A DNA stretch of 62,911 bases, filler included, from Intoshia linei (Eukaryota > Animalia > Orthonectida): assembly GCA_001642005.1 (NCBI GenBank). It is 5 parts of 5 records of this genome, joined end to end, with 100 filler letters (N's around TTAATTAATTAA, not from the genome) between each part and the next. Parts side by side here need not be neighbours in the genome. Positions count along the whole stretch, not along the records: positions 27,801 to 41,123 come from LWCA01001017.1; 4 more parts are not named here. One strand, given 5' to 3'. A program made the translations under genes and the position numbers. Shown here one piece after another: positions 15,401-57,427 of the stretch; the first letter of the stretch is position 1, and each line of letters starts with the position of its first letter. The notes below the pieces were generated by a model. That model made no database searches, had not been told where the DNA came from, and saw nothing but the letters and a program-made list of their open reading frames with translations.

Positions 15401-18400
15401 TATGATAAATGAACTGATCATGAGAAATTAACTTGAAAGTACATTAATTTTTATGTATGCATCTTATAATGATACATAATTTTAAATATTTTAAAAATTT
15501 TTGACTAATAGACTATTTAAAATTCATTGATACATTTCGACAATATAATAAAAAATAATATTGTCAATTTATGATTATTGATATTACATAATTAATTTGT
15601 CCTAAAGTACAAATTAAAATTTTTAAATATTTAATTTGACATTTAAAGTAGACTTTCGTAACATTCTAGTTTCCAGTTCGCTTAAATTAATAAAAAATAT
15701 ATTGATTTGAAATTAATTTTCCACGTTCCTCCTTTATCTATTTTATCCTTCTCTATGATTTGAGATAATATTATTATATTTATTAATTTATGTTAATAAG
15801 AAATCAAAATTACCAAAACTACTTATTTTTCACTTTTGAGACCGAACATTTTATATAATAAATGATACAACGTTATCAATGTATCTCAAAAGATTTTTAA
15901 ATTTTATTTCACGTCCAACCAGATCAATCCCATTTTATTGTGTTTTAAGAAAATTAAATTTTATGTGAATATTACATTGTAAACCTAACCCAGTGATGGC
16001 AAAAATATGACACTCTTGTCACGCACAGGAATTCTTCCTGACACGCTGGTATTAAGCTTATTTGAAATGTTTAATAATGGCGTGGAAAAATAAACTCTAA
16101 AGTGTATTGTAAATGCACAAAAAAAATCTTTACTCAAAACATTGTAATAAAACTAATAGTTTTAATTAATTTAGAATAATTTTAATTCATAAAATTAAGT
16201 AAGAAACAATAATAATAGAATAAGTGTACAAATAATGTTAAAATTGTAATCATAAATAAATAAATCATGCAAATATATGAAAAATCTATAAAAAAAAAAA
16301 TTTGTAAAAAATTGTTATAAAAATAAAAATATATATTATAACGCTGGCACCTTCCACAATTGGGCCCACATAATTGACACTTTGATCATTATGCCATATT
16401 AATTGATTATGTCACCCTTGTTGTGTAATAATTAATGATGCGACGATTCCGATGCGATTCCAAATACTTTTGAATCATACTATTTAGTGAGTTTTATTTG
16501 TTTTAATTAGAATTAGTCTAAATGAATAAACATAGTAAAACAAACTGGCCTATAAATAAAATTGTGCAGAAAAATTTTCGCTTGAATCTTATAAAATCCT
16601 ATCCATTATAAATTAGTATTATAAAACAAATTTGTTCCGATTTTGTCACCTTCAACGTGAATAGACGAGCCTACATTGTTAAGTGTTTTAATTTTTTTTA
16701 CAAATAAAAAAATTGCCATTAATTTGAAAACCATAAATTACTGAATATATTACAAGACATAATTAAGGATACTGTGTATTCTACCGTATCTGCTATATTT
16801 CCTGCATTATAACGTGCCCTGCATGTGTAAATACCAGAATTTGATCCTTTGGTTGAACTGATTAGCAAATTATCAATATTAACCCTAATTAATATTTTAA
16901 TTGATATGCTTATAATATTTTAATTAACATCAAGTTGAATTTTGGGGGAATATATCGTGTAAATGCTGACATAATTAAAGTTTAATTATAATTAATACAT
17001 TCCATATTTATATATAATTTGATTTAATTTAATATTATTAAAACTTAAAAAAGTTTTTAAATCAATATTCGACCCTAATTATTTGAGTAACTACACCATG
17101 ATAGTCTCCAAATTTTTCAGTCTCATCATCGTCTTACGAAAATTAATCAGATCGTTTTAAAAATGCGAAAATGTTGTTCCTTGGTAATAGTAAGTATACC
17201 TGTTATTTTCTTGAGATGTATCTATTTTTTCAAATTGATGGTACCACTCAATATTTATTTTACTGGACAGTGTTTTAAATGAACATTTAATGGTAGTAGG
17301 CTCATTTCTTTTGGCATATATTAAAGGTTCAAAATTTTCTATATCAAGCATAGGATACTTTTCATCTACAAATATTATTAAATGAAATACTAAACATTAA
17401 AAAAGAAAATAGGATATTTTTATAGGAAAATTTCTTTATAAAATTTTACAAGTATATGAATTATTTTTTATATAAAACTTTTTTAGTTTTAAAATTTGAA
17501 TTAACTTGCCCTCTTTTGCGAAAACTATTGAATTACTATTTTTAATTTTTGGTCACCGATAAAAATCGATAAATTTAATATTTTTAATTGCTCAGGGATG
17601 ACAAAAAAATCATTCTGATACTTTCGAACAGTAATTGATGACATGATTTGGAATATATGATAAAGATTAGACTTATAAGTACACATTTTTAAACTTAATG
17701 AAGTATTCGAGGTCAATGAATCATAAACAAATTTTAAAGCAGTCGAACAAATAAAATAACAGCCATCTGTTTATATTATTGTAATAATTTGATATGCATT
17801 AGTGAATAATTAGTAATTTCATTTAATATATATATGCAAATTTGAATTAGGAATTATATTTGAATACACTGTTACAATTCATGATGTCATGTCAAACAAA
17901 TGGATGAATCGAAATTGATATTAATTATTTGGTTTTAATTTTGAAAAAGGGTGCTAATGAAAGTACATTGAAACGTTTTGCTGTCTGTGAAATATCAGTA
18001 CATCAATCTTATTTATCAATGTCAGTGTTACATTCCATATCCAAACTGCAATACGAGAACCTATCTGTAAATAAGAAAATTTTAATGAATTCAGAATGAG
18101 AAAATTGCGAAATTAGATATTACCGTTGACCGAAACTAATTAAAGTACCTTTAAATGCAATAGTGTAGTAACCAGATATTTTGGTGAATCCCATAACATT
18201 TACTCCTCTACATTCATAAACTCCTGAAACTTCATTATTGTATTTTCCGTTTTTTTGATAAATAATTAACTTCTCTTTATTTAATCGGGGTTTCCTAATT
18301 AAATTATATAATCATTCATTTAAATTTACTTTTTTCCATTAAAAAACCACATAATTTTGGGCTTTGGGTTCCCCCCGATAATGCACTGAAGAATAATGTC

Positions 18401-19022
18401 ATTGTTTCCATGAAGTGAAAACAATGCATAGCTAGTGTTTCTCTGGTCCATATATATACTATCTTTAACATCGTTTAAATTCAATGTGGCTTTAGTTGAA
18501 ATCCCTATATATAATATTAATTTTTTAAAATTAAATCTCTTACACAAAATATTTAGTTTTACACCTCTACTCATAATTGGTCCTGATGATGAAGCAGACA
18601 TGTTGTGTGCCATGCATCTAAAAATACCAGCATCTTTATTTCGATCGACGTGAGATATATGTAAATTAGATTCTAAGCAATATCTTCTGCTGTTGATTTT
18701 GTCTTTTTTTTTTAATATTGATGCGTTAATTTGTTTTCCGTTCATTGTCCACCAAAATCGAATATTTATAGGACTAGACGCCCGACAATGTAAGGTTACT
18801 GATTGACCCTCGTGGATTGTTTGAGGAGATGGCGTTTCCACAAAATACAATGAGTGTTGTTGTGCATTGATGGGGGTGGCTCGTTGAATTACAGAACCTA
18901 TATAATTAGTTATATATAGTAAAATATGAACCGTTATTTTCATTAATAATAGCAAATAAACATAAAATCAACCAATTAACACTGTAATTAGCAATAAAAA
19001 TATAATATAGAATATATTTCAT
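9402..19022 (-). CDS. PTK7: PTK7/off-track-like receptor tyrosine pseudokinase (multiple Ig domains, TM, kinase), many exons
   Basis: ATG at 19022 with a hydrophobic leader. Ig domains read 'LYFVETPSPQTIHEGQSVTLHC..DAGIFRCMAHN', 'DSGVYVCTIENIAG', 'HEGRYRC' and 'DGGMYTCQAS'. The TM reads 'HIIILSVVGSIIYIIILIFFAVFC'. The kinase has GSGKYG, HENIVKVIGCC and HGDIAARN, DFG is replaced by 'SFI' (AKLSFIG), and FRWWSPE follows. This architecture and DFG loss are typical of PTK7. Confidence 0.88.
10470..11606 (+). mobile_element. hAT (Buster/Charlie-type) element in a PTK7 intron with a transposase remnant
   Basis: TIRs CAGGAGTGTCA / TGACACCCCTG with a perfect 8-bp TSD ATCTAGAC (10462-10469, 11607-11614). 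The internal ZBED5/SCAND3-like remnant reads 'QYSDKFLNYGF..MKPGRL..SYEIAPLISKNGKSHTIAEKLIK'. A second CAGTG.. end at about 10924 suggests nesting. Confidence 0.85.
12066..12554. mobile_element. hAT-type MITE
   Basis: TIRs TAGTAATGCGAC / GTCGCATCACTA with an 8-bp TSD ATTATAAT (12058-12065, 12555-12562). A partial second copy lies at about 16433-16512. Confidence 0.8.
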
Positions 19023-27700: not shown

Positions 27701-27800
27701 NNNNNNNNNNNNNNNNNNNNNNNNNNNNNNNNNNNNNNNNNNNNTTAATTAATTAANNNNNNNNNNNNNNNNNNNNNNNNNNNNNNNNNNNNNNNNNNNN
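27701..27800. other. Assembly gap linker (N44-TTAATTAATTAA-N44)
   Basis: An identical 100-nt linker occurs four times and carries stops in all six frames. Confidence 0.97.
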
Positions 27801-28919: not shown

Positions 28920-29379
28920 AACGTTATAAAATAAGAAAACTAACTGTGTGTATTATTAAAATTGAAACTCTATAACATAATCAAAAACCACTAACGATAT
29001 ATATTCGCTGTGCGTTTAACATTTTAAATAAACCATTACAAATCTTATAGTAAAATTAAAATATAACTTTATTTTTTAAAAACAGTGTTATAGTGAATTG
29101 TCATGATTTACAGAGTATTATGTTAATCACCGTTTATAACTAAACATGTTAGTTTTTAAATTTTCATTCTAGCTGTCTTAGTTTGATTTTTATCAACGAT
29201 GCAATCTCTTAAATTTAGAGTATAAATGTAAAGTGAAAAAAAATGTATTTGTATTGAAGTGACTTAAGTTTGACTCAGGACGATCATCTCTAATACGATA
29301 TGGATAAGTATGGCTTCGTAGCCATAAGAATTATCAAGAAATTTAGTAGAATATATAAGCATAGAGTAACAACAGTGTT

Positions 29380-29896
29380 TATACAAATTTCGACGTCGTT
29401 AAGCCTGAAAGTAGACATATGCGAGACATTTTGTCATATAAAATCCAGTAGCCATAATTATAAAAATATGCTAAAGCTATAAAAAACGATCGAAAAAACG
29501 AAAAAATCCATCAATCGACACTAGAGATTATATGCTCGTTTGACAATTTCATGTTTAACAAGAACACACTTGCATCCTTTTTCATTAAAATACAACCTCA
29601 CGTCATTCAAAAAACATGAGACATTCACTTTAATAAATTCTAAACTTGTTTCATTCAATCAAAATATCAACACAATATACACAAATTTGAATTGCATATT
29701 AACAGAAATTGCGTTCAAGTTCATGGAAAAGATAAACGTTTTATTACGTGATGATGAAATCCCCGAATTATTGGATGAAACAAAAAATAAAAGTAAAACC
29801 TTTTTTGGTTTTTCTAAAAAGCCCCATTTTTCTCACAATATTATCAACGTTATACATCTAATAGAACTACTATCCAAAATATGCACTGGTTTTTAG
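29380..29896 (+). pseudogene. Tentative endogenous viral element: alpha/virga-like RdRp (RdRP_2) fingers to motif A fragment
   Basis: With one frameshift near 29612 it reads 'NTLASFFIKIQPHVIQK/HETFTLINSKLVSFNQNINTIYTNLNCILTEIAFKFMEKINVLLRDDEIPELLD..FFGFSK..'. This parallels the virga/nege 'F.IKxQPK..QTIVxH.K.INAIF..D...E.D.SK.D.SQ' order, but key residues have decayed. Confidence 0.35.
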
Positions 29897-30424
29897 AGAA
29901 TGAAAGCAGCTTTTACTTGAATGCCATTTCGTTGACGAGGCTTATTGAATATGCGTCGCATAGCAGTTTTAAATAAAAAATAGAAAGTCAATTATATCAA
30001 TTCTCTGCAGTTTATCTGAGAAAAAAATTTTATGTGCCACTTTACAAAGTAATGAAAGAGTTAGCTATGATAGATTTTGAGATGAATTAAAGGTAATATT
30101 TATTTGTTTTTCAAATAAATGTTTATATTATTTTTATAGAAGGAATTGAATACCTTTGACAACAAATGATTTTTCAATCAATGAAGCCAGTATAATTAAA
30201 CTGGCTGTAGATACTGAATGTCTTATTCTATGTGAAAAAATTTTGTAACATTTGTAATGCATATACTTTTGAGTGAATTATTGAACCATTCTACAGTTTT
30301 ACTAATCAAAGTTTTTTGAACTTGAAAAAAATTCACAAAGAACCAGATGGTATGAACAGGGGCGTCAACAAAAAGAAAAGGCGAATTTACGTTAAACGGA
30401 TAATGCATTACATTTTTCCACGCA

Positions 30425-30750
30425 ATGATTATTAAGGTAACTTTATTGGACGGTATCGTCAGAATTCTAGTCGATACTGGGTCACAAAAAAGTTTTTGCA
30501 GTATCAAATTTTGCAATCAATTACAGGCTAAACTAGTCACTAAACGATCTTTCGGTGGTGAATTTGGTGGTCCCATGTATTCTGACTCATGTTTGATTTT
30601 ATCCTTAAATTATAGCAATGTCTCATTGGAATTGAAATTTTATGTTTTGCCTCAATGGCGTTATGATTTTGATATCATTTGTGGCATGGAGTTTTTATTT
30701 AATTATAGAGCAGTATTAAATGTTGCAGAAAATTGTCTATTTTCAATCTT
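30425..30750 (+). mobile_element. Retroelement (Ty3/Gypsy-type) aspartic protease fragment
   Basis: 'RILVDTGSQKSF..FYVLPQWRYDFDIICGMEFL'. Confidence 0.85.
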
Positions 30751-30759
30751 ACTTACAGT

Positions 30760-31700
30760 CAAACGAGCAGTCCGTAATACTATATAATAGTAATGGGCTA
30801 CAAAACGAGGCTGATTGTATTTCTGCAATCTGTAACGTCCTACCAAAATTTAAACGCAGGTTGCAGTGATTGGAAGATAGGGCTAGTAATATGTCAACCT
30901 TAGCATTGAATAATCTAACAACGCCTATTTGTGATCTAATTGCTATGATTAACGATAACAACGACAACATGGGGGCCATTGATACGACAGCTATATTACA
31001 AGAATGTACAAGAGCAACACATAAGGTGTGGGTGCTAGAACACGTCGCGTATGATCTAAATGTCGATACTTTCTTACACTCAATGGACGTCAATGACGTA
31101 GTAGTTGCATATCTGACTTACAATTATATGCCGGATATACTTCTTGCATCAAAAGCCTTCGCTGAAGGCACTAACATGTCAGCAAAAATAATTGCTGAGA
31201 AAAACTGTATTGAATTTAACTTCTCGGACGGATTGGAGAAAGGATATGTATCCAAATTTGACGACTATAAGAGCTGGTTGACATTCTTACCAGTTATGAC
31301 AACAAAGTTATATCAATATAATATTGAAATAAAACGGATGTGTGGTTCAGAGATCATGTTAGAAATAACAAAGGTGATGCTCCACACGCCGATCAGCAAT
31401 CCAACAATAACACGACCACTTTATGCACGCGACGAGTACATAATCCTTACGATCAAAATAGATTTGCAGGGTAACAATATGCAGTCTGTAGTAATTAGAT
31501 GCGGCTTAACAGAATACAGAAGGTATTATAGTGCTGTCGAAGCACATTACCTGGCTAACAAAAGCGATGACGATAACAAACTAGTATCCACTGCTATGCG
31601 TTTAGAAAGAACAGCGAACACGAGATTTTTGATCGCGAGACAGAGTTTTTCATTGTCTACGTGAGTTCAATCGCATAACACAATTCGTCAAGAAGTTGAC
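30760..31700 (+). pseudogene. Endogenous viral element: alpha-like (Martellivirales; virga/nege/endorna-like) replicase methyltransferase region
   Basis: Intronless 264-aa ORF 30870-31664, visibly GC-richer than its flanks. 'LQEC....VWVLEHVAYDLNVDTFLHSMD...VVAYLTYNYMPDILL..IEFNFSDGLEKGYVSKFDDYKSWL..YNIEI...IMLEITK' matches the Vmethyltransf pattern 'QxC..A..HS.YD......M.......F.P.LL..I.F.F.D....Y.H....' in order. The frame continues upstream of an in-frame TGA at 30867. Confidence 0.75.
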
Positions 31701-31949
31701 ACATTCTGTTGATGGAAGATAGATTAAATTGTTACAGGTTAATGGTAACTATATTAAACATTAGGAATAAATTTCAATGTTATATTCCTTTTCATTTATC
31801 AATATTTGTTAGATTTGCCTAACAAATTGACATACTAATTTAAGAAAATAAAGGATATGTGAATAAAAAGTTTTTTTAATGAATAATATTAACATCAATC
31901 AAGCAGTATGTGATCAATTAGTATTTGGTTGTGGCATTTATATGATTAC

Positions 31950-33783
31950 AACAAAATGATTATCTGTTGAAAGCGACCTAACGCTAAAATTATGCCGTAA
32001 AGTATGTTACCAATATGAAATAGTGACCGATGCAAAATGTCATCTTGTAGAAAAATAACCGGTAGTTTGTAATATTCAACAAAAAGTATGACCTGGTTTG
32101 TTATCATTGTGGAAAATCTTATGATAACACACATTATAAAATATGCAAAGCAACAAATGCGTAGTGCATGAATTGTGGTAAAAAAGGTCACTTTAAAAAT
32201 TTTTGCAAAAATCCTATTAGTAAAAATCTCAAGTATAAAAGGATCAGTGCTATATATGATGAAGGTTCTTCTAAATTTATTACTATTTATGTAAATAAAC
32301 AACCAATTAAATTTTTAATTGATACAGGTAGTTGTGTTTCCATTATTCCCCATACCACTATAAGGGAAGATTTCAATAGGGATCATAATCATATAACTCT
32401 AACATCTTTTAGTGGACACCGGATCAAACCAATGTTCTGTTTCACCGGACTTGTCGAATATAACGAATTACAATGCTCACATGAATTCTAAATAGTACAG
32501 AATATTTCTTTAGCAATTCTTGGATTAGATTTGATATATAAATTAAGGTTAAATTTAAATAAAATTTTGAAATTATGTGCATCCAATGAACAAGAATTAA
32601 ATCAGGTTAACAATATAAATTCTAAAACGTTTCCTACTAGTTTCGTAGAATTACCCAAAATCAATAATTTTAAATTATATATTAAATTAAAAGATAATTT
32701 TATTCCAACAATTCCTCGAGTAAGTCGTACACCTTCCATTCTATATACAGTAGTAAGGTGAAAGATAAATTACATGAGTTAGTCAAAGTGGCATAATATA
32801 ACCAATAGATCGTAGTGATTGGACCAGTTCCATTGTAGTAGCTTCAAAGAAAAATGATGATATAAGAGTATGTGAGAAATTTAAATAAAAACATTGAAAT
32901 TGATACTTATCCCTTACCGTTAATAGAGAACTTCTCTACTATATTATATTATAAATAATAATATATATTACTCTTTATACTCCAAATGCTCTGCAGTTAA
33001 AATGCTTACTAATCCTACCACACCTTTAACTATAAAATTTTTAAAAAAAGTGCTTTCAAGAGAAGGTATCCCTTTCAAAATTATATCAGATAATGGACCA
33101 CAATTTGCATCAACATAATTTAAACAATTTTTACAATCTATGGATATTCAAAATTGTTTTACTGCTAATTATCATCCACAAAGTAACGGGCAAGTGAAAA
33201 ATTTTAATAAAACTTTAAAGCAAAGATTGAAATTGCTGTTCAAGAGGGTATGAGCATTAGTGAAGCAGTTACAAAAATTCTAGGCAATTATCGAATGTCA
33301 CCACATACTATTACTGGGTACCCACCTATAGAACTACTACATGGAACAGCTATTAACATTAATTTAAGTGTAGGTAATGTCCCAATCAATAAAACCAATA
33401 AAATGAAGAAATTCGACGTAATGTGAAAAAAATCATAACAGAATGATAGGCAATGATAAAACCTGGAGAAAGAAAACTCTTAAAATCGGGGATCGGGTAA
33501 GGATTGCGATTGAAAGTGTTTAAAAGGTTATCTGATGTCTGAACCACATAAAGTAATTGAAATTGTAGCAGAAAATACTTACAGATTAGATGATAATCTT
33601 ATATGGAATGAATCAAACTTGACTAGATCAAATCTGTGTACAGATGAAAAACAAGATGATTATCCCTATATGGTACAAGAGCATTTATTAGCTGATGAAC
33701 ATATTGATGCTGAAACAACTGGTCGACCAAAAAGATTGATTCAACTTTCTAGCAAATACAAGGATTTCGTGATATCGAACTAA
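31950..33783 (+). mobile_element. Degenerate, internally deleted Ty3/Gypsy element (gag CCHC, protease, RT start, integrase)
   Basis: CYHCGK..H..C, CMNCGKKGHFKNFC, FLIDTGS, WTSSIVV..DIRVC, 'SREGIPFKIISDNGPQF', 'TANYHPQSNGQV', and the tail 'GRPKRLIQLSSKYKDF'. Confidence 0.92.
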
Positions 33784-34268
33784 ATAAAGTGTTACTAAAA
33801 TAACGTAGAATAACGATAATAGAAATAAACATTTTATACTTAATTGTACACATGGAATATCATAGTTCCTCGCACAAATATTCAAAAAGATGTAAAAATT
33901 CCAAAACATTTAAAAGATTACATAATAAATTAACGAAGGATGTGTAGTAACATGGTTACTCATTAAACTTGTTTTATTTATCAAATTGCTATAATATTAC
34001 AAAAAAAATAACAAATTTAAATAGTTATTGTAGATATTTTGTAAATACATACTTAAACATATATCCCATACACTTTTAATTAACATAGATAAATAGTTTG
34101 AATTTAATAATTGTATTAACCTCAAATAATATTTGTCTTTTATAACTTGACGATAGCAGTGTTTAATTTTATCATTATTCTTCATTTTGAAATTATCTAG
34201 TTGACATGGATAGATTAAATTAAGTTTAAAATAAATATATAAACTATGGAAATTTAAATTTTGTAAAA

Positions 34269-36699
34269 ATGTCACTATATGAAGAAATTGACCAAGATTC
34301 GTGTATATATTGAATTTTTTAATAAAAATTTATAAGCTTTAATTAATATAAATCGTTTCAATTTAGCTTTATGGAAAAAAAGAGCTTCTTTACAAAGAAA
34401 AAGTACATTAAAGAAAAATGTCTCCAAACCTAAAGTTATTTTTTTGTAATTTCCCGTTGTATTTTAAAGTATTCGATCAACTTAATGTGATCTATTTTAA
34501 ATTACAATTGTAATTAAAATGAACTGAGAAAGATATATAAAATTTGGTAGATCAATAATCGGGACTCGATTCGCCAACTGAAATTTTAAATTGTTTATTT
34601 CTAAATGATTACTTTTCTTCTATAAATATATCTAATGTGTTTACACGTGGAAACATTTTACGTACAGTCTATTTGATTGTCTTATTATTATAATTTAGAA
34701 AGTTTGTATGAGTGCTGTGCCGCCCACACTTTCAAATGTAACTGATAGAGAAACCGGAGCTTTTAGATTTAATCAATTTGGACAGGTAGAATATATAATG
34801 TACATTGTACATTTTATATGATTAACTTTTAGATTGAAGCATACGCAAAAGTGTCAAATTACGTTCCACGTGAACCTTCTTTTGTGGTGGGAGTGACTGA
34901 TGAATATGACCCTTTATATCCAAATGAATTTGAACAAATTGTAAAACAATTGGAAATTGCTAACGCTGAGCAATTGCCTTCTCTTGATAACACACCTAAT
35001 TCTTTTCAGTAATTTTTGATTATTGACTAGTAAAAACGATTAATATTAGAACAACACAGTTAAATTCTGGAAAACCTTTATTGACTCAATATGACTCCGA
35101 TTCTGAATCGGATGATGAAAAACCACATTCCAAAGGTTTGCATGTTTAATTGTTTTTATTTTTTTTTAGGTAAAGCTGCAATTCCACCACCCTACTCTTT
35201 AACAGGTAAAGTAATCATTAATACGTCATGTATTGTTCAGTTGTTTCAAAATAATATATAGTAATGTATTGATGTAGTAAATGCATCCACTCCTATGCCT
35301 CACTATTCTACAGATGCCAGAGGTGTCGCTAATAATATTATGAGAAAGTATGGCTATAAGGAAGGAGGTGGATTAGGGAAAAGAGAAACTGGGATAAGCA
35401 AACCTCTAGAAGTTGTAAAAACAAGCTCGCATGCTGGATATATTGTTGAAGAAAAAACTAATTTGCAATGTACTTATTTCATTTTTATTTTATAATTACT
35501 CAATTCTAGGCAAACCCAAATTAACCGAGTTGCTTAAAAACCAAACTAAAATTTTGGTTTTATATGTAAGTATTTCATGGATTTTTTAATTAATATTTTT
35601 TAGAATACAGCAGACTCAAATAATATTGATAATTTAAAAAATGATATTATTTCAGAATGTAGTAAATATGGGAAAATTGATAAATGTATTATTCATTTGG
35701 TAAGTTTACATGTTATTTTTAAAAGGTATTGGTTTATGTCAGACGTATTAGAAGGTGCACTAACGTTTATATTTAATGTATAATTTAACATAAATAACGA
35801 CAACTTCATTATAGAGTAGTATCATCTACAAATTTGAGTAAATCTGTATCTATCGTTCCTAGACCCCTACTCTGAGGGCTCAACGAAATTTTTATAAAAA
35901 ACTTTATTTTCCCAAATTTAAAGTTAATGAATTCTATTTTTAACAACTGTAAATAACAATTATTATAATTATGTATGTCAAATTGATATTGTCAATACGA
36001 GATCATGGAGGGTGGCTATGGATATATGACATTACGCATCGTTTTCTTAATTTTTTTAAGCTTTTATTTTTTATTTATTTTGAGCCATGAGCATGGTAGG
36101 TCGGCCCTACAAAGGTCTCAATTTTTGAAAATATATATGAAAATACATGTAATAAAGTTTATGATTTTATTTAGACTGACGAGGACGAAGTTTGGGTATA
36201 CTTAAAATTCGAACGCAAAGAATCTGCGATTAAAGGTTATTTTTTACATTTTATACTACAATTGACTCATAGTTATTTTAATACTGAATTTTCAAATCGC
36301 CCTAGATTTTATTTTGTTGAATATACTACACCGTTTCTTTTTAATTAAAATTAAAATTTATCATGTATAAATTTTCAAAAATGGGCCCGTATAATTTTTG
36401 ATTTAAAAAAGTGGCCCACGAGATACAATATGTTGCCGACTACTGTATTCTCTCTACATGACCATAAATTTTATGGAAAAGTTTATCATATTAACCAAGC
36501 AATGTATCACAAAATTTTTAATATAATAACGGCTTCATCCTCGTACCTACGGCACGGTGAAATTGAAGTTTTTAATCTTAATTGTCAAAAATATATATTT
36601 TTTTTAGCTTTAATTTCATTGAACGACCGATATTTCAATGAAAGATTGATTGCAACTAGATTTGTAAGTGAAGAACAATTCGATAATATCGATTTGTAA
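34269..36699 (+). CDS. RBM17: Splicing factor 45 (G-patch + UHM), multi-exon
   Basis: It starts MSLYEE.., has the SF45 motif 'DEYDPLYPNEFE' and the G-patch 'VANNIMRKYGYKEGGGLGKRETGISKPL'. The UHM reads 'SECSKYGKIDKCII..VYLKFERKESAIKALISLNDRYFNERLI'. Confidence 0.93.
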
Positions 36700-37242: not shown

Positions 37243-38348
37243 AATGGTAAACTCGGGAATGTCAGATACAACATTGGTGGCAGAAGTGCTTGGTAAACCC
37301 AACATATTGTTATCAAGTGATGGTGAATTATTGATGAACGTGAAAGATTGGATTGATAAATTTGAAAATTTTCACTTTTGCATTATGAGGATATAAAAGA
37401 GAATTGAAAAGTAGTTTTATTGAAAATATGCATCGGTGACGAGGCGGAAAGACGCTTAAAACGATTTAAAAAATATGATGCAATAATATCAGAGATTAGT
37501 CATGGCAGATCAAAAATGTATTGAGAAAAAGATATGAATTTTTATCCGTGAACCAAGAACCAAATGAAAGATGTGTACTTTCGTTACTCGACTAATCAAG
37601 GCTTATAATGAAACTGAATATACAGATGATTCTATAAGGTTAGATGTATTTATTAAAGGATATTATTGTAATACACTAAAATCCAAATTGTTAATTGAAG
37701 AAAAGCTGACCTGGGATCGTGCAAGAAAAATTTGTTTAAATTATGAAACAATTAACAAATTGCAAGTGAATTATATATCTAAAAATAAATTTGTAGAAAA
37801 ACTATGTTTTCGTTGTAAATCTAAATCTCATTTGGCATCATTTACTAAATGTCCTGCTAGAAATATTAAATGTTTTAAATGTAGCAGAATTGGTCATTTT
37901 AGCAAATGTTGCAACCCTGATCTACAGAAAAAGAAATCAATTGGTACATTTAATTTCATAAAATTTATAGATATAAAAATAAAACAATTGTAATTAACAT
38001 TGACGGTAGAGATATTGAAATAATCGTAGATACGAAAAGCGAAGTGAGTTTACTACCAATAAGTTTTTTAAATTCTCAGCCTATTATTAATAGTAATTGT
38101 AAATCGATATCTTTTAGCGGTCATACAATATGCCAACGAGGAGCATGGACTGCAAAATGTAACTACCGAAATCGAACAGTGACACAACGATTTGAAATTG
38201 TAGATGGTTGCAAACCCATCATGGGATTAAAATTAATAAATCATTTAAAAATTGAATTGAATTCCTTATTTTGTAGAAATATCAATAGTATCTCAAAAAT
38301 TTCCACATTTTCAATGCAAATTAAATTAAATCAAAAATTGACAAAAAA
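37243..38348 (+). mobile_element. Degenerate Ty3/Gypsy gag-protease
   Basis: 'VKDWIDKFENF', CFRCKSKSH..C, CFKCSRIGHFSKCC, 'IIVDTKSEVSLL..KPIMGL'. Confidence 0.88.
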
Positions 38349-39062
38349 ATGATTAAAGGAAACAGAAAAATACTGCTTGTGCTAGATAATACATCCGTGC
38401 ATTACGTAGATAACAATTATAATAACATAGAGCTTCATTATTTTCCACCAAATTGAACATCAAAAATCCAACCTATAGACCAAAGAATTATTCATTCTTT
38501 TAAATCTAATTATAGAAAATTTTTTTTAAGAAATCTGAGTATGATGAATGGAAGTGATGAAATATTTTTTATGGACCAAATAAAGAAATTCAAATTGTTA
38601 AATGTTCTTCCACTTATAATTGAATCATGGAAGACTGTATCAGTTGATACAATAATCAATTGTTTTAGTCATGCATATACAAACTGGGAATGTTAAAATG
38701 CGAATATATCGATGAAAAATGCAATTGTAGATAAAAATTTGACTGAAGTCAATGATGACACAGCATTCTATGATATTCTACCTATATGTGATGACAATTG
38801 TTGTCAAGATGACATATTTTTGGAAAATATTTTTATCAACAACGATTCTGATAACATAGAGGAATTGGAAAATGAAACAAATAAAACTGAATTAATTGGT
38901 TTTTCGGATGCTCTTTACCATCTTAAAAAAGTAGAACTCTTTTTTCTTCAATCAAATGGTAAAGATGTTGAACAAGTCAGTACCTTAAGAAAAAATCTAT
39001 TTGAAATAAAAAAGAAGTCAGTTAAAATCACTGATTATTTCATGAAAAATATTAACAATTAA
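38349..39062 (+). mobile_element. Tigger/pogo DDE transposase remnant abutting the Gypsy copy
   Basis: 'RKILLVLDNTSVH..IELHYFPPN*TSKIQPIDQRIIHSFKSNYR..ESWKTVSVDTIINCF..KITDYF'. Confidence 0.93.
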
Positions 39063-39549: not shown

Positions 39550-40950
39550 AATATTGCCACTAAAATCAAAGACCTCAATCTCATGAGTATTTATTTTCCT
39601 ATTTACGAAATCAAACTTCTATTACTCATTCAGCAAAGATCTGTTAAATATAACGATGATATCATAAACGGTAAACCCTTGATGTTCAATAACGATATCT
39701 TGTCCAATCTTCAACTCAATTACACCAAGATAATTAAAACCATTATCAGCATCACCAAATTTAGGACCAATGAACCATTTTTTAATAATTTGTCAACAAT
39801 TAATAAGGTCAACGAACAACCTGAAATGTTCATATAACTCTTATCCTGCTTTTACTGTTCTGATGTTATTCAAATTTTCGATGAGCCTCTTGATAAATTA
39901 AATTCCAACCAACTAACCTCGAAAAAGGTTACGTTTGATATGGAGGAAACAACCAAAAAAGTGGGTTAAGATTCCTGAATCGCAAATAAATGTAATATCA
40001 TAACTTACAACCAGAATAATTGGGTAGACTGACAAAAACCATAAGTTCACTAAAGAAATTTTCTATACAGATTCAAACCTCAACAAAATCCTTACAACTG
40101 ATGATACCGTACTCGCGTCAAGTGGTTGGGTTCTAGTTAAGTATCGCGGGAAAAAGGGTGAACTTATCACGTAGACAATCAAGCAAGGTAAGGATTTTAG
40201 TAAATTGTTGTGTGGACCTATCCCCATTATGGACTGGACCCCAAAAGAATTTGACCCTAAGTTCCGGATATTCATTCGTCAAAACATCGATTTAAGGGCA
40301 CATCAATCTGTCTTAACTGATCTTTCACAAAGGTTATTGAAATCAATCAACAAAATTAGGATTGAATGTTCAGAACTACAACAACAGGATACCAACGAAA
40401 GGAAAACTTCGAGATTAAAAACCATTCAAGGGACATTTGATATCTCAAATTTTTATGGAAGTATAAACCTAGGTATTACCAATATGCTTAATAAAATAGT
40501 CGGTTCAATGACAGGTGTTAACAATGCTTTTCTTTGGTTGTCAAAAATTCTTAAGATGGGCTCTCTTCAGTTCGTCTCACCTACTGTCTCTAATACTATC
40601 ATCTCAAATCTCCCTAATTTAATTCCTTTTACCATATGCGCACTTGGGGCACAGGAAGGGATGAACCAAGCTTTTTGGTCTCTCTTGACTAGGGGATTTT
40701 CATTATGGCCACATTATTTCTATTTATCATTTCTACGGTTTACTGGTAAACGTCCGAGTAAAGGGGGGGGGGATAACATGGTAACGACAACCTGCTTTGA
40801 TTATAGGATAAATTTTACATTAGTCAATATGGTACTTTATGAAATGAAAGACATTGGCACTAAAATTGGGTTGGAATTTCACTAAAAGAATCGGTTTTTT
40901 CAATTTTATCAAACAACGACTGCCAGTCCACAACTATTGAAGGTTTCCAA
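39550..40950 (+). pseudogene. Endogenous viral element: negative-strand RNA virus (Mononegavirales-like) L-protein RdRp core
   Basis: One frame carries ordered motifs: pre-A/F 'KKGELIT*TIKQGKDFSK' (40151-40204; cf. KEKELK..GRxF), A 'TFDISNF', B 'LGAQEGMNQAFWSL' (cf. GGIEGxxQKxW), C 'GGDNM' (cf. GDNQ) and D 'IGLEFH/KES' (frameshift), then 'PQLLKVS'. Stop-interrupted frames extend upstream to about 39550. Confidence 0.82.
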
Positions 40951-41123: not shown

Positions 41124-41223
41124 NNNNNNNNNNNNNNNNNNNNNNNNNNNNNNNNNNNNNNNNNNNNTTAATTAATTAANNNNNNNNNNNNNNNNNNNNN
41201 NNNNNNNNNNNNNNNNNNNNNNN
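41124..41223. other. Assembly gap linker
   Basis: N run with TTAATTAATTAA. Confidence 0.97.
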
Positions 41224-45799: not shown

Positions 45800-45899
45800 N
45801 NNNNNNNNNNNNNNNNNNNNNNNNNNNNNNNNNNNNNNNNNNNTTAATTAATTAANNNNNNNNNNNNNNNNNNNNNNNNNNNNNNNNNNNNNNNNNNNN
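45800..45899. other. Assembly gap linker
   Basis: N run with TTAATTAATTAA. Confidence 0.97.
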
Positions 45900-48748: not shown

Positions 48749-51700
48749 ATGAATACTGTCCCAATACAATTATGCAAGATAATTCAAATCTCATGGAAAT
48801 TTTGTGTCATGAAAATAAAATCAAAACTTTTAACGACCCTTGATCTATGAAATCAGAAACTAATTGTAATTATAATTATTAGATATTTTTAATTTAGGAT
48901 CAAAAAAAATTTTATCCTCATAATCACATTTGTTGTGATTCCGATCACAGTTTATTTATTGCTACCGTATTATTTCAATTCCTTTAAAAGTATACAAGAC
49001 ATTATAAATGCAAAGATATTATGGTATATGTATTGGGTTGGATTGGGAATTTTGTCATCAGTTGGATTTGGTTTTGGATTGCATACTTTTGTTCTTTACC
49101 TGGTATGTGTATTTTATTCTCTAAATTATGTGGTATAATTGTAATCGATAAAAATTGTCGATACCCTTTCAAATTTATCTTTGAATGAATATGATTTTGT
49201 TTAAGCCATATTTATTTATTCATTTGTTAATCAGTGGTCAATAAACTTTGACACGATGCCGCGCAAACTAGAAAATATTCTACGGGTCTGATGAAAATTT
49301 TATTCAAATAATATTAATGATTTTTTAACATTTTTAAAATCTTAAATACATTCCACGGACAAGTCGTAGAATGTGTAAAACTTTCATTTAATTAAGATTT
49401 TTTTTGAACCAAACTTTAAGGGCAAGTCGTAGAATGTGTAAGTCTCATTTATCCAGATTTACCAATATTTTTTCGAAAAATCCATTTTTACACCATCTTA
49501 TGAGAAAGAATCGTTGAATCCAACCATTTAACAAAAAATCCAATTTTATCAATCTTTAATCTTTAAATTCAATTATATCTTTCCCATGTGTACAAATGGT
49601 TGCCTATCTGAGCGACTTGATGTCATCCTTCATGTTGGAATGACCTAGAAACAGGTCATATACTGCTGTGAGTGACATAATTATCGGATTAGCTGCTATA
49701 ATCGAAAGTCATATATGTCCAGTATTTAAGGTTTCAATCTTGTCTAAGGGCAGTGTTACATTACGAACTCTTAAGCTATCCTTAACTCTTTCGATTGTAT
49801 CCCCCAATTGAGAACCCCTGTCTTAGATTATGCCAGTAGCAGTGAATTCCATCTAAGTTGAACTTCTTTTCATCGCTCCAAATAATTTTGGACCAATCCG
49901 TCGATTCTAATATTTTTTTCAGCGAAAAGAATTCTGCTTTGTTTGTGTTTTTTTAATAATCTAGGTATTTTTTTAATTCTGGAAAATAAAAATAAATCGG
50001 AATGTTGGAGTGTTCTTTGAATGGAGCGAATAGATATATCATTATCCATTTTAATAGATATCTGAGTTGCAGTACATTTTTCGCGTGTAGCAAGTCCTAA
50101 AAGCTTCCTTTCATCTCGTGGTGATATACATTTAGGCCTCCCACTTGATTTCTTTTTACCGTATCCTCAGCGTTTTTCAGCCTGAGTAAATGTTAAATAC
50201 TGCACATTACGGATCACCACAGATACATCCAATACGGACTTAATACTTATAGTGTATGCCGAGGAAATGTTCATACGTGAAGACAATGATCATTTATCGA
50301 TGTTGTACTTAGAATGAAAAGACACATATTTCTTTTGAATCCTATACACTATATCCAACGGACACTTATAAGATATTTCCAAAACACTTTTAACTGTCAC
50401 AGAATCGTTAAGGACACTATAGTTTATTTTAAAATTGGGATGACTTTTGACAAAAGGAATCTGTAATGCAACACCGACAAAGACCATAGACGAAATTTTT
50501 CCAATTAATGCACAGAAAAACAGAGCACCCGGATGTGACATCATAGCTTCAAAGAAATACATACCACCAGCAACTGCTCTTTTAGGATGCATCAGGAAAC
50601 TAGTAACATTACGTACATAATCTTTCGAGCCATAATAACAATACTAATAGTAGCTTCCACCCTGAAATACTAAATAAGCACCATAAATAATTTAAATATA
50701 CATTATAAATATGTCTTGTAGAAATGTTATTAACTATTATTTATATTTAGGGACCTTATATAATAAATGTGACATTAGCTGCCTATGAATGTAATTCTGT
50801 GAATTTTTTGGAACCTCCTTATCCGAACGAGTAATTTTTAATTATTTTTCAAATTATATAATTATTTAGAATTATATGCCCGTTTGTTGTGAATAAAGAT
50901 ATCTATATTACATTTTGGCAGATATTATGGAAAGTGAGCCTCGAGTCGTTATTTTGGGTAAATTAATTTGATATTAAATATTTATAATTGTAGGGTGTTG
51001 GGACTGCTATAGGAGAACTACCACCTTATTTCATGGCTCGCGCAGCCCGATTTGCTGGCGGTGAAAGTGAAGAATTAATTTTCAAAAAAAACATGGTAAT
51101 TAATTCTTAAAATAAATTCATTAATTTAAATTAACTTAGAAATGGATGGATAAAATGAAATATAATGTGCATTATTTTGTTAAAAATATGGGATTTCCTG
51201 CAATTTTTTTATGTGCCTCAGTAATTTTTAATAAATCTAAAAATGTACATTGTTTTAAATTGTATTTAGATTCCAAACCCTTTATTTGATTTAGCTGGTG
51301 TCACCTGTGGACATTTTTTGGTTTCATTTAAAACCTTCTTTGTTGCGACTTTATTAGGAAAAGCTATTGTTAAAACTTTTATTCAAGTAAATCAGTTTAT
51401 ATTTAATAATTATGAATTAGGAAACATTTGTTATTGTTTTATTTAGTGATAAACATTTAAACTCACTGGTTAATTTAATTAGGTAATTTTATTGATATTA
51501 TGTTTATTTGTTTTTTATTTTATTTATAGTAAAATACCTTTATATGGGGAAAGATTGAAAAAACCCGTTTTACACTATCTCAACATCCAGAAATTAAAAT
51601 TACATAACAAATCTAATGTGGTCGAGGTACTTATTTTATCTTTCAACTAATTTTTAAATTCCTATAGACTACGACAATATCTTTGATATTGAATATTGTG

Positions 51701-51790: not shown

Positions 51791-52195
51791 CAATAATTAA
51801 TTTTTCAAATATAATTTTGAAATTTTTTTAATTAATTTATTAATAATTTATGAAGCGACTTGCTTATTTATCTTTTTCATTCATAAATAGTGTCGAATGC
51901 ACGGTTTACTTTATTAGATCAGTGTAAATAAACGTGTAATGTGGCGAAGTGATATTTGATATGTAATGATGCGAATTTGTCAAGCTTCATTAATTTGAAA
52001 TTTGACTACGATATCAATGTCGCCTCACATGGTTGCATAATTGTCATTTCAAAATGCATATGTGTAAAAAATTAATGTTTATTTGCGCTTGCTTAGTGAA
52101 CAAATAGACTTATTGCCATGTTACGAGTCGTGTTTTATTTATTAGTCCATATTTGAGATTCCGCTGAGATTTTATAAATATTTTAAAAAATTTTA

Positions 52196-57327: not shown

Positions 57328-57427
57328 NNNNNNNNNNNNNNNNNNNNNNNNNNNNNNNNNNNNNNNNNNNNTTAATTAATTAANNNNNNNNNNNNNNNNN
57401 NNNNNNNNNNNNNNNNNNNNNNNNNNN
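57328..57427. other. Assembly gap linker
   Basis: N run with TTAATTAATTAA. Confidence 0.97.

What the first reader, a model, noticed from the sequence alone, without database searches (positions are those of the whole stretch)
30760..31700. Positive-strand RNA virus capping methyltransferase fragment with a 264-codon open frame, embedded among Gypsy remnants
Seen: a GC-richer intronless ORF whose QEC..H.AYD..M..PDILL..IEFNF.D..GY..Y pattern follows the alpha-like methyltransferase-guanylyltransferase. It stays open for 795 nt while neighbouring TEs are riddled with stops. Inference: an EVE from a virga/nege/endorna-like virus that is either young or under constraint. The N-terminal catalytic part upstream of TGA 30867 is degraded, so an active enzyme is unlikely.
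Basis: partly seen in the sequence, partly recalled or inferred. Interest (0 to 1): 0.82.

Follow-up and report, generated by a model that had tools for sequence, protein, structure and literature searches.

The report
Nege-like virus fossil in orthonectid genome
A 264-codon open frame in this AT-rich animal genome is the back half of the RNA-capping enzyme of a nege/kita-like RNA virus, wedged between retrotransposon remnants; it lacks the catalytic front half and is likely a fairly young, non-working viral fossil of a kind already well known in insects.

Summary
Window 30870-31664 (+) is a 264-codon stop-to-stop frame at 38% GC, against 26.7% for the window; 0 of 2000 shuffles stay open.

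It derives from the methyltransferase-guanylyltransferase domain of an alpha-like (+)RNA virus replicase:
- Pfam Vmethyltransf: E 7e-6, 25.7 bits, just under the cutoff of 27.
- Nearest virus among 1.84 billion proteins: a Vmethyltransf-FtsJ-helicase-RdRP_2 polyprotein (E 1.4e-4).
- hhalign against nine nege/kita-like replicases: E 1.5e-8; the best of 40 shuffles reached E 0.03.
- Predicted core superposes on chikungunya nsP1 residues 137-299 (Z 11.3).

The fragment is cut at its 5' end. The viruses' conserved motif-I histidine and GG loop are absent, so no capping activity is expected.

The closest relatives are two "hypothetical proteins" of the orthonectid Intoshia linei (about 50-73% identity), so the host is likely an orthonectid.

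Third-codon-position GC is 0.40, against 0.20-0.29 in host exons, which favours a young insertion over long constraint. Contigs from runs that carry spliced forms cover the ORF; strand and level are unknown.

A second, decayed fragment (helicase, 50170-50628, minus strand) lies on another contig of the scaffold.

Verdict: a real EVE, a new member of a known kind, of moderate interest.

The parts
30404..30784 (+). Left flank: retroelement aspartyl-protease fragment, open for 127 codons, in a different frame from the viral piece
   Evidence: Pfam RVP_2 E 6.5e-6, 26.4 bits (cutoff 20.3), residues 19-110 = profile 33-126/136
30783..30866 (+). Virus-derived stretch upstream of the in-frame stop. 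It is homologous to Intoshia linei protein OAF68703.1 (P0004) residues 133-160, and homology may begin near 30756
   Evidence: BLASTP with the TGA read as X: 53% identity over 74 residues, E 1e-20. By a transitive alignment through P0004, the viral DxxR position reads N..G here; this step is weak because P0004's N-terminus is not significant against the viral profile
30867..30869 (+). In-frame TGA inside the virus-derived sequence
30870..31664 (+). 264-codon open frame (stop at 31662-31664; first ATG at 30891, giving 257 codons): a methyltransferase-guanylyltransferase domain fragment
30993..31394 (+). Confidently folded core (ORF residues 42-175), which superposes on chikungunya nsP1 residues 137-299
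   Evidence: AF2 with 12-row alignment, pLDDT 66-84 over residues 51-172. VIA-align 6z0u_A Z 11.3, rmsd 2.7, 128 aligned. hhalign to viral profile, ORF 43-168
31118..31123 (+). 6-nt in-frame length difference: contigs of runs X1 and X2 lack 6 bases here (two Val codons of a GTAGTAGTT run)
   Evidence: table 4
31686..32017 (.). Right boundary: sequence repeated elsewhere in the genome starts 22 nt after the ORF's stop. Other copies continue differently to the left of 31686
   Evidence: Loose ends 'before 31686' in X1-X4 and several variant contigs from 31686 on (tables 3, 7, 8)
32165..32488 (+). Right flank: retroelement zinc-knuckle (weak) plus protease fragment
   Evidence: Pfam RVP E 4.7e-4, 20.9 bits (cutoff 20.7); zf-CCHC only E 0.76
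32927..33250 (+). Right flank: integrase-core fragments
   Evidence: Pfam rve E 4.4e-4 and rve_3 E 2.9e-3, both below cutoff
50170..50628 (-). Second virus-derived fragment: superfamily-1 viral helicase piece, with 3 in-frame stops in the 177 codons read (50700-50170). It lies on another contig of the scaffold, inside an intron of a VTT-domain host gene
   Evidence: tblastn hits from 9 of 9 nege/kita-like replicases. Pfam Viral_helicase1 24.8 bits, above cutoff 21. hhalign Prob 98.8, E 8.8e-17 to replicase positions 1523-1668. Intron placement

Best explanation
Window 30783-31664 is a 5'-truncated endogenous viral element that descends from the methyltransferase-guanylyltransferase (capping) domain of a nege/kita-like positive-strand RNA virus replicase; it was likely copied into DNA by a retrotransposon reverse transcriptase and is most likely a fairly young relic with no enzymatic function. 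SHOWN: the homology and fold; the absence of the N-terminal half, which in the viruses carries the conserved histidine, the GG loop and H-x-C-x-P; an in-frame stop within the viral sequence; physical continuity with the flanking DNA in contigs of two studies; direct abutment on both sides to retroelement-type sequence in the same orientation. INFERRED: (a) A viral RNA was reverse-transcribed and recombined with retroelement RNA or cDNA by template switching, and the chimera was then integrated in the germ line of an orthonectid-like host. (b) The frame is still open because too little time has passed, not because a protein is needed, since its third codon positions still have foreign composition. 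(c) Today it is probably carried passively and is likely transcribed as part of unspliced RNA that also covers the adjacent protease remnant. Whether that RNA feeds a small-RNA pathway is untested.
For: Family assignment:
- Pfam PF01660: E 7.3e-6, ORF residues 40-206 = profile 108-244/310.
- Exhaustive phmmer over 1.84e9 representatives gave 5 hits at E<=1e-3. Two are Intoshia linei hypothetical proteins (E 4e-27 and 2e-17). One is a 2318-aa Vmethyltransf/FtsJ/Viral_helicase1/RdRP_2 polyprotein (E 1.4e-4). Two are repeat-inflated false positives.
- BLASTP to that polyprotein: 30% identity over ORF 44-154 = residues 213-328, inside its Vmethyltransf domain at 67-487.
- hhalign of the ORF against a profile of 9 nege/kita-like replicases: Prob 95.5, E 1.5e-8. 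The three-member family against the same profile: Prob 97.3, E 2.1e-11 over 257 columns.
- Control: real score 71.0, best of 40 shuffles 26.6, reversed sequence 16.5.
- tblastn: 6 of the 9 viruses hit the ORF at E<=0.015.

Fold:
- All 18 listed Foldseek PDB rows with E<=1e-3 (20 counted) are chikungunya nsP1 entries.
- VIA-align 6z0u_A: Z 11.3, model 42-175 = nsP1 137-299. Generic methyltransferases score about Z 5.
- BFVD: 305 hits at E<=1e-3. All 37 named rows among the 50 listed are RNA-virus replicase or polyprotein entries, for example negev-like, virga-like, toga-like and tobraviruses.

Truncation and inactivity:
- The viral columns conserved in at least 8 of 9 (H95, G138-G139, H153/C155/P157, D163, R166 in P0006 numbering) all lie N-terminal of the ORF.
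- Within the fragment, 12 of 24 such columns are kept.

Integration:
- An X1 contig of 1963 nt spans 29800-31764 across both junctions, with 2 substitutions and one 6-nt gap.
- X2 contigs cover 30542-31737 with the same differences.

Youth:
- GC3 is 0.398. The four host exons have 0.20-0.29, the four retroelement pieces 0.23-0.29, and background GC is 0.258.

Transcription:
- X2-X4 carry GT..AG joints of 34-49 nt in the neighbouring VTT-domain gene, and X1 does not.
- The same runs have contigs over the ORF: X2 30542-31737, X3 31238-31505 and 31553-31749, X4 31379-31591.
Against: - 264 open codons in a genome where 7.6% of codons are stops is also what purifying selection would give.
- The only length difference seen between individuals is in frame.
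- The helicase fragment, at a similar distance from the viruses (27-33% identity), has 3 stops in 177 codons against 1 in 293 here. My own binomial estimate, made from no call, gives P about 0.16 for so uneven a split of 4 stops, so this is not significant.
- The GC3 argument assumes that mutation pressure in this genome pulls silent sites towards the host value, and that the donor virus was GC-richer than the host. Neither was measured.
- The Pfam score is below the gathering cutoff.
- The AF2 model used an alignment that already contained viral methyltransferases, so the fold match is not independent of the sequence match.
- Template switching is inferred from adjacency only. No LTR pair or target-site duplication was found, and the right flank begins with gag-side sequence rather than the 3' part of the same element.
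- The kind of runs X2-X4 is not on record, and contigs give neither strand nor level.
Confidence: 0.7

Rival explanations
1. Co-opted gene: the ATG-initiated 257-codon frame is expressed as a truncated capping-domain protein kept by selection. For example, it could interfere with replicase assembly of related viruses, or serve some host role.
For: The frame is long and open. There is an in-frame 6-nt length difference between individuals and no substitution in 795 nt. Contigs of runs that carry spliced forms cover the ORF. Half (12 of 24) of the virus-conserved columns are kept. Two relatives are annotated as genes in Intoshia linei.
Against: GC3 of 0.40 has not moved towards the host's 0.20-0.29, as silent sites of an old host gene would have. 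An in-frame stop lies within the viral sequence just upstream. The domain is cut in the middle of its fold, covering only the equivalent of nsP1 137-299. The covering contigs also run over the adjacent protease remnant, with no splice and no defined ends. The exact protein, from either start, is not in a 15-billion-protein collection. The annotated relatives are differently truncated.
Confidence: 0.15
2. Retrotransposon cargo: the methyltransferase-like piece is an accessory domain captured by an LTR retrotransposon and spread with it. This would resemble the virus-derived helicase domains reported in insect retrotransposons.
For: It is directly preceded by a protease fragment and followed by zinc-knuckle/protease/integrase fragments, all on the same strand. 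At least three related copies exist. There is a precedent for viral helicase domains in insect retrotransposons (PMC5563155; only the abstract in the search listing was seen).
Against: In X1 a single unbranched contig carries the ORF, and no second contig at 85% identity or more was laid on it, while the sequence from 31686 on is visibly multi-copy. There is no other copy in the window. The two Intoshia relatives have no retroelement Pfam domain and are only 50-73% identical. The protease and the viral piece are in different frames, with stops between them.
Confidence: 0.06
3. Not viral: a chance open frame or a diverged cellular SAM-dependent methyltransferase.
For: The Pfam score of 25.7 is below the cutoff of 27. 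There is no PDB sequence hit. Class I methyltransferases appear in the fold lists at Foldseek E 2e-3 and Z about 5.
Against: The shuffle and reverse controls score far below the real match. The only non-repeat, non-Intoshia hit among 1.84e9 proteins is a viral replicase. nsP1 stands at Z 11.3 against about 5 for cellular enzymes. A viral helicase fragment of the same virus group lies in the same scaffold.
Confidence: 0.02
4. Assembly artefact: sequence of a free RNA virus, or a contaminant, wrongly joined to host DNA.
For: The window is a scaffold with artificial spacers, and no whole genome was available to check.
Against: Contigs assembled independently from runs of two studies (2016 and 2024) bridge both junctions with the same sequence. 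Only a truncated domain with an internal stop is present. The spacers lie far from the ORF, at 27701-27800 and 41124-41223.
Confidence: 0.02

Closest known systems
Virga/nege-like endogenous viral elements (non-retroviral integrated RNA virus sequences) of insect genomes (Kondo et al. 2019, Virus Res 262:37, seen only as a citation; Bombus survey PMC12922265, passages read)
   Same: Fragments of alpha-like replicases, including methyltransferase and helicase domains, sit in animal DNA, often beside retroelements. The Bombus survey counts 20 methyltransferase-domain and 20 helicase-domain elements.
   Different: The host here appears to be an orthonectid-like spiralian parasite, not an insect. 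The sequences are very distant from all sampled viruses (at most 30% identity, stem length 5.5 in the tree). No paper in the searched library pairs Intoshia with endogenous viral elements.
Alphavirus nsP1 mRNA-capping enzyme (chikungunya virus, PDB 6z0u/7dop and others)
   Same: The predicted core (ORF 42-175) superposes on nsP1 137-299 at Z 11.3, rmsd 2.7 A, 128 residues. Both belong to Pfam PF01660.
   Different: Identity is about 16%. The part equivalent to nsP1 1-136 is missing; from memory, that part holds the guanylate-accepting histidine and the SAM-binding residues. There is no evidence of ring assembly or membrane binding.
Nege/kita-like replicases: P0006 (unnamed 10.6-kb contig) and its relatives, among them Zeugodacus tau and Bactrocera oleae negev-like viruses and Solanum violifolium ringspot virus
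   Same: They are the nearest exogenous relatives of both the methyltransferase and the helicase fragments. The alignment is colinear through the whole domain.
   Different: These are complete polyproteins of 2071-2472 aa (Vmethyltransf, helicase, RdRP_2, some with FtsJ). The window holds only two separated, truncated pieces. Attachment next to P0006 is weak (56/89).
Intoshia linei hypothetical proteins OAF69571.1 (A3Q56_02648) and OAF68703.1 (A3Q56_03535)
   Same: They are the closest relatives of the ORF: 50% identity over 123 residues, and 53-73% over two blocks. The ORF and OAF69571.1 form a 100/100 clade.
   Different: They are different loci or alleles with different truncations. OAF69571.1 continues further into the C-terminal part of the domain. 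OAF68703.1 extends further N-terminally and lacks the middle. Neither is annotated as viral.
EVE plus LTR-retrotransposon mosaics in mosquito piRNA clusters (PMC6797480, PMC7161354; abstracts in the search listing only)
   Same: The viral fragments are embedded among retroelement fragments and are likely transcribed.
   Different: No small-RNA data were available here. Cluster identity, strand bias and any antiviral role are untested.

Membership tests
Alpha-like viral methyltransferase-guanylyltransferase (Pfam PF01660 Vmethyltransf) | Score at or above Pfam's gathering threshold | tested here: not met
   25.7 bits against a cutoff of 27, E 7.3e-6. Only 137 of 310 profile positions are present.
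Alpha-like viral methyltransferase-guanylyltransferase (Pfam PF01660 Vmethyltransf) | Significant homology to undoubted members | tested here: met
   hhalign against 9 replicases E 1.5e-8, with shuffles reaching at best E 0.033. phmmer E 1.4e-4 in 1.84e9 proteins. BLASTP 30% identity inside the member's Vmethyltransf domain.
Alpha-like viral methyltransferase-guanylyltransferase (Pfam PF01660 Vmethyltransf) | nsP1-type capping-domain fold | tested here: met
   Z 11.3 to 6z0u_A for residues 42-175, and 18 of 18 listed Foldseek rows at E<=1e-3 are nsP1 entries. Caveat: only half of the domain is present, and the model's alignment contained viral rows.
Alpha-like viral methyltransferase-guanylyltransferase (Pfam PF01660 Vmethyltransf) | Motif I histidine (covalent m7GMP acceptor; role recalled from memory) | tested here: not met
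   The column invariant in 9 of 9 viruses (H95 of P0006) lies N-terminal of the fragment, and a retroelement protease fragment occupies that place.
Alpha-like viral methyltransferase-guanylyltransferase (Pfam PF01660 Vmethyltransf) | SAM-binding GG loop and motif II D-x-x-R | tested here: not met
   G138-G139 are absent. The D163/R166 positions read N and G upstream of the in-frame TGA, by a transitive alignment through P0004. That alignment step is weak.
Alpha-like viral methyltransferase-guanylyltransferase (Pfam PF01660 Vmethyltransf) | Conserved aromatic/acidic residues of the C-terminal half (Y..Y, E) | tested here: met
   H58, Y61, D62, F118, Y126, Y133 and E153 are kept, within 12 of 24 columns conserved in at least 8 of 9 viruses.
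Non-retroviral endogenous viral element (EVE) | Virus-derived sequence physically continuous with host chromosomal DNA | tested here: met
   The X1 contig 29800-31764 and the X2 contigs 30542-31737 bridge both junctions. Retroelement and DNA-transposon remnants lie on the same contig of the scaffold. Clear host genes lie on neighbouring contigs of the scaffold.
Non-retroviral endogenous viral element (EVE) | Incomplete viral genome, not a free virus | tested here: met
   Only a truncated methyltransferase piece and, elsewhere, a truncated helicase piece were found. Neither Pfam on 105 ORFs of 40 aa or more (27.8-41.2 kb) nor tblastn with nine whole replicases over the full window found an RdRP_2 piece.
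Non-retroviral endogenous viral element (EVE) | Germ-line fixation / vertical inheritance | not testable with these tools
   The locus is present with identical sequence in runs of two studies. No population or sister-species genomes were available.
Nege/kita-like virus lineage (Martellivirales; order name recalled from memory) | Phylogenetic placement inside the group | tested here: inconclusive
   The ORF is sister to P0006 with weak support (56/89) on a stem of 5.49 changes per column. The tree has 11 rows and 142 columns; P0004 was left out for having fewer than 100 residues in the region.

The most novel reading that the evidence does not exclude
An orthonectid, one of the most reduced animals known, keeps and expresses a truncated viral capping-domain protein (257 codons from ATG 30891). 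The protein retains the back half of the nsP1-like fold but no catalytic centre, and acts as a dominant-negative decoy that disturbs replicase assembly of related nege-like viruses. This would be protein-based EVE-derived immunity outside arthropods and vertebrates.
Probability: 0.06. Interest if true: 0.75.

Novelty: new member of a known kind. Interest (0 to 1): 0.4.

Why it matters
Replicase-derived fossils of virga/nege-like viruses are well documented in insects, so the kind is known. Three things are new here:
- The apparent host is new: an orthonectid-like, extremely simplified marine parasite. My full-text searches found no report of endogenous viral elements for this group.
- The donor lineage is very distant from every sampled nege/kita-like virus.
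- There are several related fragments: three methyltransferase pieces and one helicase piece.

Together these would show that such viruses reached the germ line of orthonectids more than once, or were copied there. They also give a sequence handle for finding the living virus in orthonectid or host-worm transcriptomes. The unusually intact frame makes this copy the best candidate in the family for testing whether any of them is expressed as protein.

Tried and rejected
- Single-sequence AF2 gave pLDDT 33 and was unusable.
- phmmer of the ORF against PDB sequences gave 0 hits at E<=10.
- The word-indexed protein search found nothing, either with 'longer' or with 'near'. The 'near' miss is a limit of that index, because P0002 and P0004 are in that collection and within the length range.
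- P0003 (14 fasciclin repeats) and P0005 (an internal-repeat protein) were dropped from the 5 hits as repeat-inflated. Their Pfam content is unrelated.
- Scans of the viral contig collection with the ORF and with the three-member family alignment gave no relative. The metagenome scan with the same alignment also gave none.
- No whole genome is held for this window. As a result, copy number, paralogue DNA and dN/dS could not be obtained.
- No RNA holder is listed for the stretch.
- X2 has no cover at 29800-29893, 32432-32600 and 49522-49817. I noted this but do not use it as evidence.
- Contig depth was not used to rank expression.
- The joints 31735->31811 and 31778->31813 lie in the multi-copy repeat with sides under 31 nt, so they were not assigned to this locus.
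- No direct repeat or LTR pair was found around the element. blastn of 29000-34500 against the whole window gave no second copy.
- I suspected that P0004's 'PHSHAFSR' is the motif-I histidine. hhalign of P0004 against the viral profile is significant only for its last 34 residues (Prob 7%), so I dropped the idea.
- Tip lengths in the tree (P0001 0.18, P0002 1.13) were not interpreted. Retention of conserved columns is similar (12 of 24 against 9 of 19), and P0002 has gaps in the region.
- ORF 40175-40882 remains an unconfirmed lead. The language-model search lists only viral RdRp clusters. Pfam gave nothing at E<=10, PDB nothing relevant, the nege-like profile nothing and the viral contigs nothing.
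- The exact ORF protein, from either start, is not in the 15-billion-protein collection.
- Earlier notes of this scan held nothing for this genome or these sequences.
- PMC6338049 (passages) mentions only DNA methyltransferases as retrotransposon accessory domains, not viral capping enzymes.
Full report
THE OBSERVATION

Window 30870-31664 (+) is a stop-to-stop frame of 264 codons, preceded by TGA at 30867-30869. Its GC is 0.382, against 0.267 for the window and 0.28-0.29 for the immediate flanks. With the window's stop-codon frequency (0.0756), about 9e-6 frames this long are expected in the window, and 0 of 2000 shuffles of the ORF stay open. Of the 24 frames of 120 codons or more in the window, only a 415-codon host exon is longer.

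WHAT IT IS

Several independent lines point to the same family.
- Pfam gives one family, PF01660 Vmethyltransf, at E 7.3e-6. The score of 25.7 bits is just under the cutoff of 27, and ORF residues 40-206 match profile positions 108-244 of 310.
- An exhaustive phmmer search of 1.84 billion representative proteins returned 5 hits at E<=1e-3.
  - Two are repeat proteins (14 fasciclin domains; an internal-repeat protein) whose scores are sums over repeats. I discard them.
  - Two are 'hypothetical proteins' of the orthonectid Intoshia linei, OAF69571.1 and OAF68703.1.
  - The fifth, P0006, is a 2318-aa polyprotein with Vmethyltransf (67-487), FtsJ, Viral_helicase1 and RdRP_2. The ORF aligns inside its methyltransferase domain at 30% identity, ORF 44-154 to residues 213-328.
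- The relatives of P0006 include two negev-like viruses of fruit flies and a kitavirus.
- Against a profile of these nine replicases, the ORF alone scores Prob 95.5%, E 1.5e-8. The three-member family scores 97.3%, E 2.1e-11, colinear over 257 columns to the end of the domain.
- As a control in the script box, the real ORF scored 71.0, the best of 40 shuffles 26.6 and the reversed sequence 16.5.

FOLD

Alone, the ORF did not fold (pLDDT 33). With a 12-row alignment, residues 51-172 reach pLDDT 66-84, and the two ends stay below 50.
- Foldseek against the PDB counts 20 matches at E<=1e-3. All 18 that are listed are chikungunya nsP1 entries, and the next family (glycine-sarcosine methyltransferase) starts at 2e-3.
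- VIA-align gives 6z0u_A at Z 11.3, rmsd 2.7 A and 128 residues, with model 42-175 on nsP1 137-299. Nodavirus protein A scores Z 6.8 and generic or cap-N7 methyltransferases about 5.
- Against predicted viral structures there are 305 matches at E<=1e-3. All 37 named rows among the 50 listed are RNA-virus replicase or polyprotein entries.
- Caveat: the alignment given to AF2 already contained viral methyltransferases, so this is a consistency check rather than independent proof.

WHAT IS MISSING

The fragment is the back half of the domain.
- The viral columns conserved in at least 8 of 9 replicases N-terminal of it have no counterpart in the ORF. In P0006 numbering these are H95, G138-G139, H153/C155/P157, D163 and R166.
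- Inside the fragment, 12 of 24 such columns are kept.
- Homology continues about 28-35 codons upstream of the TGA, in the same frame. With the TGA read as X, this stretch is 53% identical to OAF68703.1.
- By transitive alignment, the D-x-x-R position there reads N..G. That step is weak, because the N-terminus of OAF68703.1 is not significant against the viral profile.
- Further left, in another frame, lies a retroelement protease fragment (RVP_2, above its cutoff).
- From memory, the missing part carries the guanylate-accepting histidine and the SAM site of nsP1-type enzymes, so capping activity is not expected.

SURROUNDINGS AND INTEGRATION

- The window is animal DNA. It carries Ig-domain and tyrosine-kinase exons, an L27-PDZ exon, and a VTT-domain gene with GT..AG introns of 34-49 nt.
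- These features fit an orthonectid of or near Intoshia (inferred): about 26% GC, mini-introns (the I. linei median intron is 57 bp; PMC6543705 passage), and the identity of the nearest relatives.
- The ORF is preceded by the protease fragment and followed, 22 nt after its stop, by sequence that is repeated in the genome. From 31686 on, several variant contigs and loose ends appear in all four runs.
- Beyond that lie zinc-knuckle/protease and integrase fragments on the same strand.
- A 1963-nt contig of run X1 spans 29800-31764, and X2 contigs span 30542-31737. Both differ from the window by the same two substitutions, which lie outside the ORF, and by one 6-nt in-frame gap at 31118. So the junctions are real and were seen in two studies.
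- No second contig at 85% identity or more lies on the ORF in X1, and there is no other copy in the window.
- No LTR pair or target duplication was found. The retroelement-mediated route is therefore inferred from adjacency only.

YOUNG OR CONSTRAINED

Third-position GC of the ORF is 0.398. The four host exons have 0.20-0.29, the four retroelement pieces 0.23-0.29, and background GC is 0.258. Silent sites of a gene long resident in this genome should have drifted to host values, and they have not. I therefore favour a recent insertion as the reason the frame is still open.

This is an inference. It depends on the donor's composition and on the host's mutation bias, neither of which was measured. 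No orthologue or paralogue DNA was available for dN/dS.

TRANSCRIPTION

- Runs X2-X4 have no recorded kind. They carry five GT..AG joints in the neighbouring VTT-domain gene, which translate into one open frame. X1 instead has an unspliced contig across the same introns. X2-X4 therefore behave as RNA-derived.
- The same runs have contigs over the ORF: X2 at 30542-31737, X3 at 31238-31505 and 31553-31749, and X4 at 31379-31591.
- In X2 these contigs also run over the protease remnant without any splice.
- I read this as likely transcription of the locus. Strand, ends and level are unknown, and this is not evidence of a protein.

A SECOND FRAGMENT

- tblastn with the nine replicases also hit window 50170-50625 on the minus strand with their helicase regions, 9 of 9.
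- Pfam Viral_helicase1 scores 24.8 bits, above its cutoff of 21. hhalign gives Prob 98.8%, E 8.8e-17 to replicase positions 1523-1668.
- The fragment has 3 in-frame stops in the 177 codons read, 'FEA' where the viruses have DEA, and 'GVALQIP' where they have GDxxQIP.
- It abuts a Tc1-like remnant, which has only weak Pfam support.
- It lies antisense in the 1.65-kb intron (49102-50750) of the VTT-domain gene. A joint 50602->50751 in X2 and X4 links it to that gene's next exon.
- The window is a scaffold. Four blocks of 44 N + TTAATTAATTAA + 44 N separate five contigs. The two viral fragments are on different contigs, so their distance and relative strand rest on scaffolding.

RELATIONSHIPS

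In a tree of the methyltransferase core (11 rows, 142 columns; P0004 left out for length), the ORF and OAF69571.1 form a 100/100 clade on a stem of 5.49 changes per column, weakly joined to P0006 (56/89). The donor was a lineage far from all sampled nege/kita-like viruses. One integration followed by duplication cannot be told from several integrations.

COMPARISON WITH WHAT IS KNOWN

- Virga/nege-like replicase fossils, including methyltransferase and helicase pieces, are well described in insects. Kondo et al. 2019 was seen only as a citation. The Bombus survey PMC12922265 counts 20 methyltransferase-domain elements (passages).
- I found no paper that pairs Intoshia with 'endogenous viral'.
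- Of 26 papers holding both 'orthonectid' and 'virus', 10 were listed, and none of those titles concerns such elements. I read passages of one.
- Supplements were not consulted.
- This is therefore a new member of a known kind: new host group and divergent donor, but ordinary architecture.

VERDICT

- The element is real, virus-derived, truncated and catalytically dead.
- It is most likely a fairly young relic (0.7). Co-option as a protein is the main rival (0.15).
- Interest is moderate (0.4).

Noticed in passing
window 50170-50628 (-): A second endogenous viral fragment: a nege/kita-like superfamily-1 helicase piece with 3 in-frame stops and altered motif II/III residues. It lies antisense in an intron of a host VTT-domain gene and abuts a Tc1-like remnant.
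   Followed up: yes
window 40175-40882 (+), perhaps continuing in another frame to 41118: A 236-codon open frame with foreign-looking composition (GC 0.36, GC3 0.35). A protein-language-model search returns only viral RdRp clusters (top 0.92, Bunya_RdRp). By eye it has 'EGMNQAFWSLLT' and 'GGGDNM', which from memory resemble polymerase motifs B and C of negative-strand viruses. No Pfam, PDB or nege-profile support was found. It is possibly a third viral fossil from a different virus group.
   Followed up: partly
window 27701-27800, 41124-41223, 45800-45899, 57328-57427: Each block is 44 N + TTAATTAATTAA + 44 N, which I read (from memory) as an artificial six-frame-stop spacer. On that reading the window is a scaffold of five contigs, and order and orientation across these points are not sequence-proven.
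   Followed up: yes
window 49072-49101 and 50751-51482 (+): A host VTT-domain (VMP1/TMEM41-type) gene with mini-introns of 34-49 nt, seen as spliced contigs in runs X2-X4. A minor form joins 50602 to 50751, so part of the helicase fossil is included, antisense, in an alternative upstream exon.
   Followed up: partly
window 31118-31123: A six-base in-frame length difference (two Val codons in a GTAGTAGTT run) between the window and contigs of runs X1 and X2. No substitution was seen in the 795-nt ORF, against two in the 1070 nt upstream of it.
   Followed up: partly
window 49600-50169 (-), 38325-38693 (+), 396-899 (+), 46924-47313 (-): Other mobile-element remnants: a Tc1-like HTH (weak), a pogo-type DDE_1 transposase, a retroelement RNase H and a reverse transcriptase.
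   Followed up: no
window 35265-35492 (+): A G-patch domain ORF (E 7e-13) on the same contig as the methyltransferase fossil. Whether it is a host exon or part of a retroelement was not determined.
   Followed up: no
window 9402-18967 (-) and 52187-53434 (+): Host genes: exons of an Ig-domain receptor tyrosine kinase, and a 415-codon exon with L27 and two PDZ domains (Dlg-like, from memory).
   Followed up: no
P0003 and P0005: A 14-fold fasciclin-repeat protein and another repeat protein reached E 5e-27 and 8e-5 against the ORF, purely by summing a weak similarity over repeats ('AYHFVPDALLTTEALPEGT' against 'TYNYMPDILLASKAFAEGT'). This is a reminder that multi-stretch hits need checking.
   Followed up: yes
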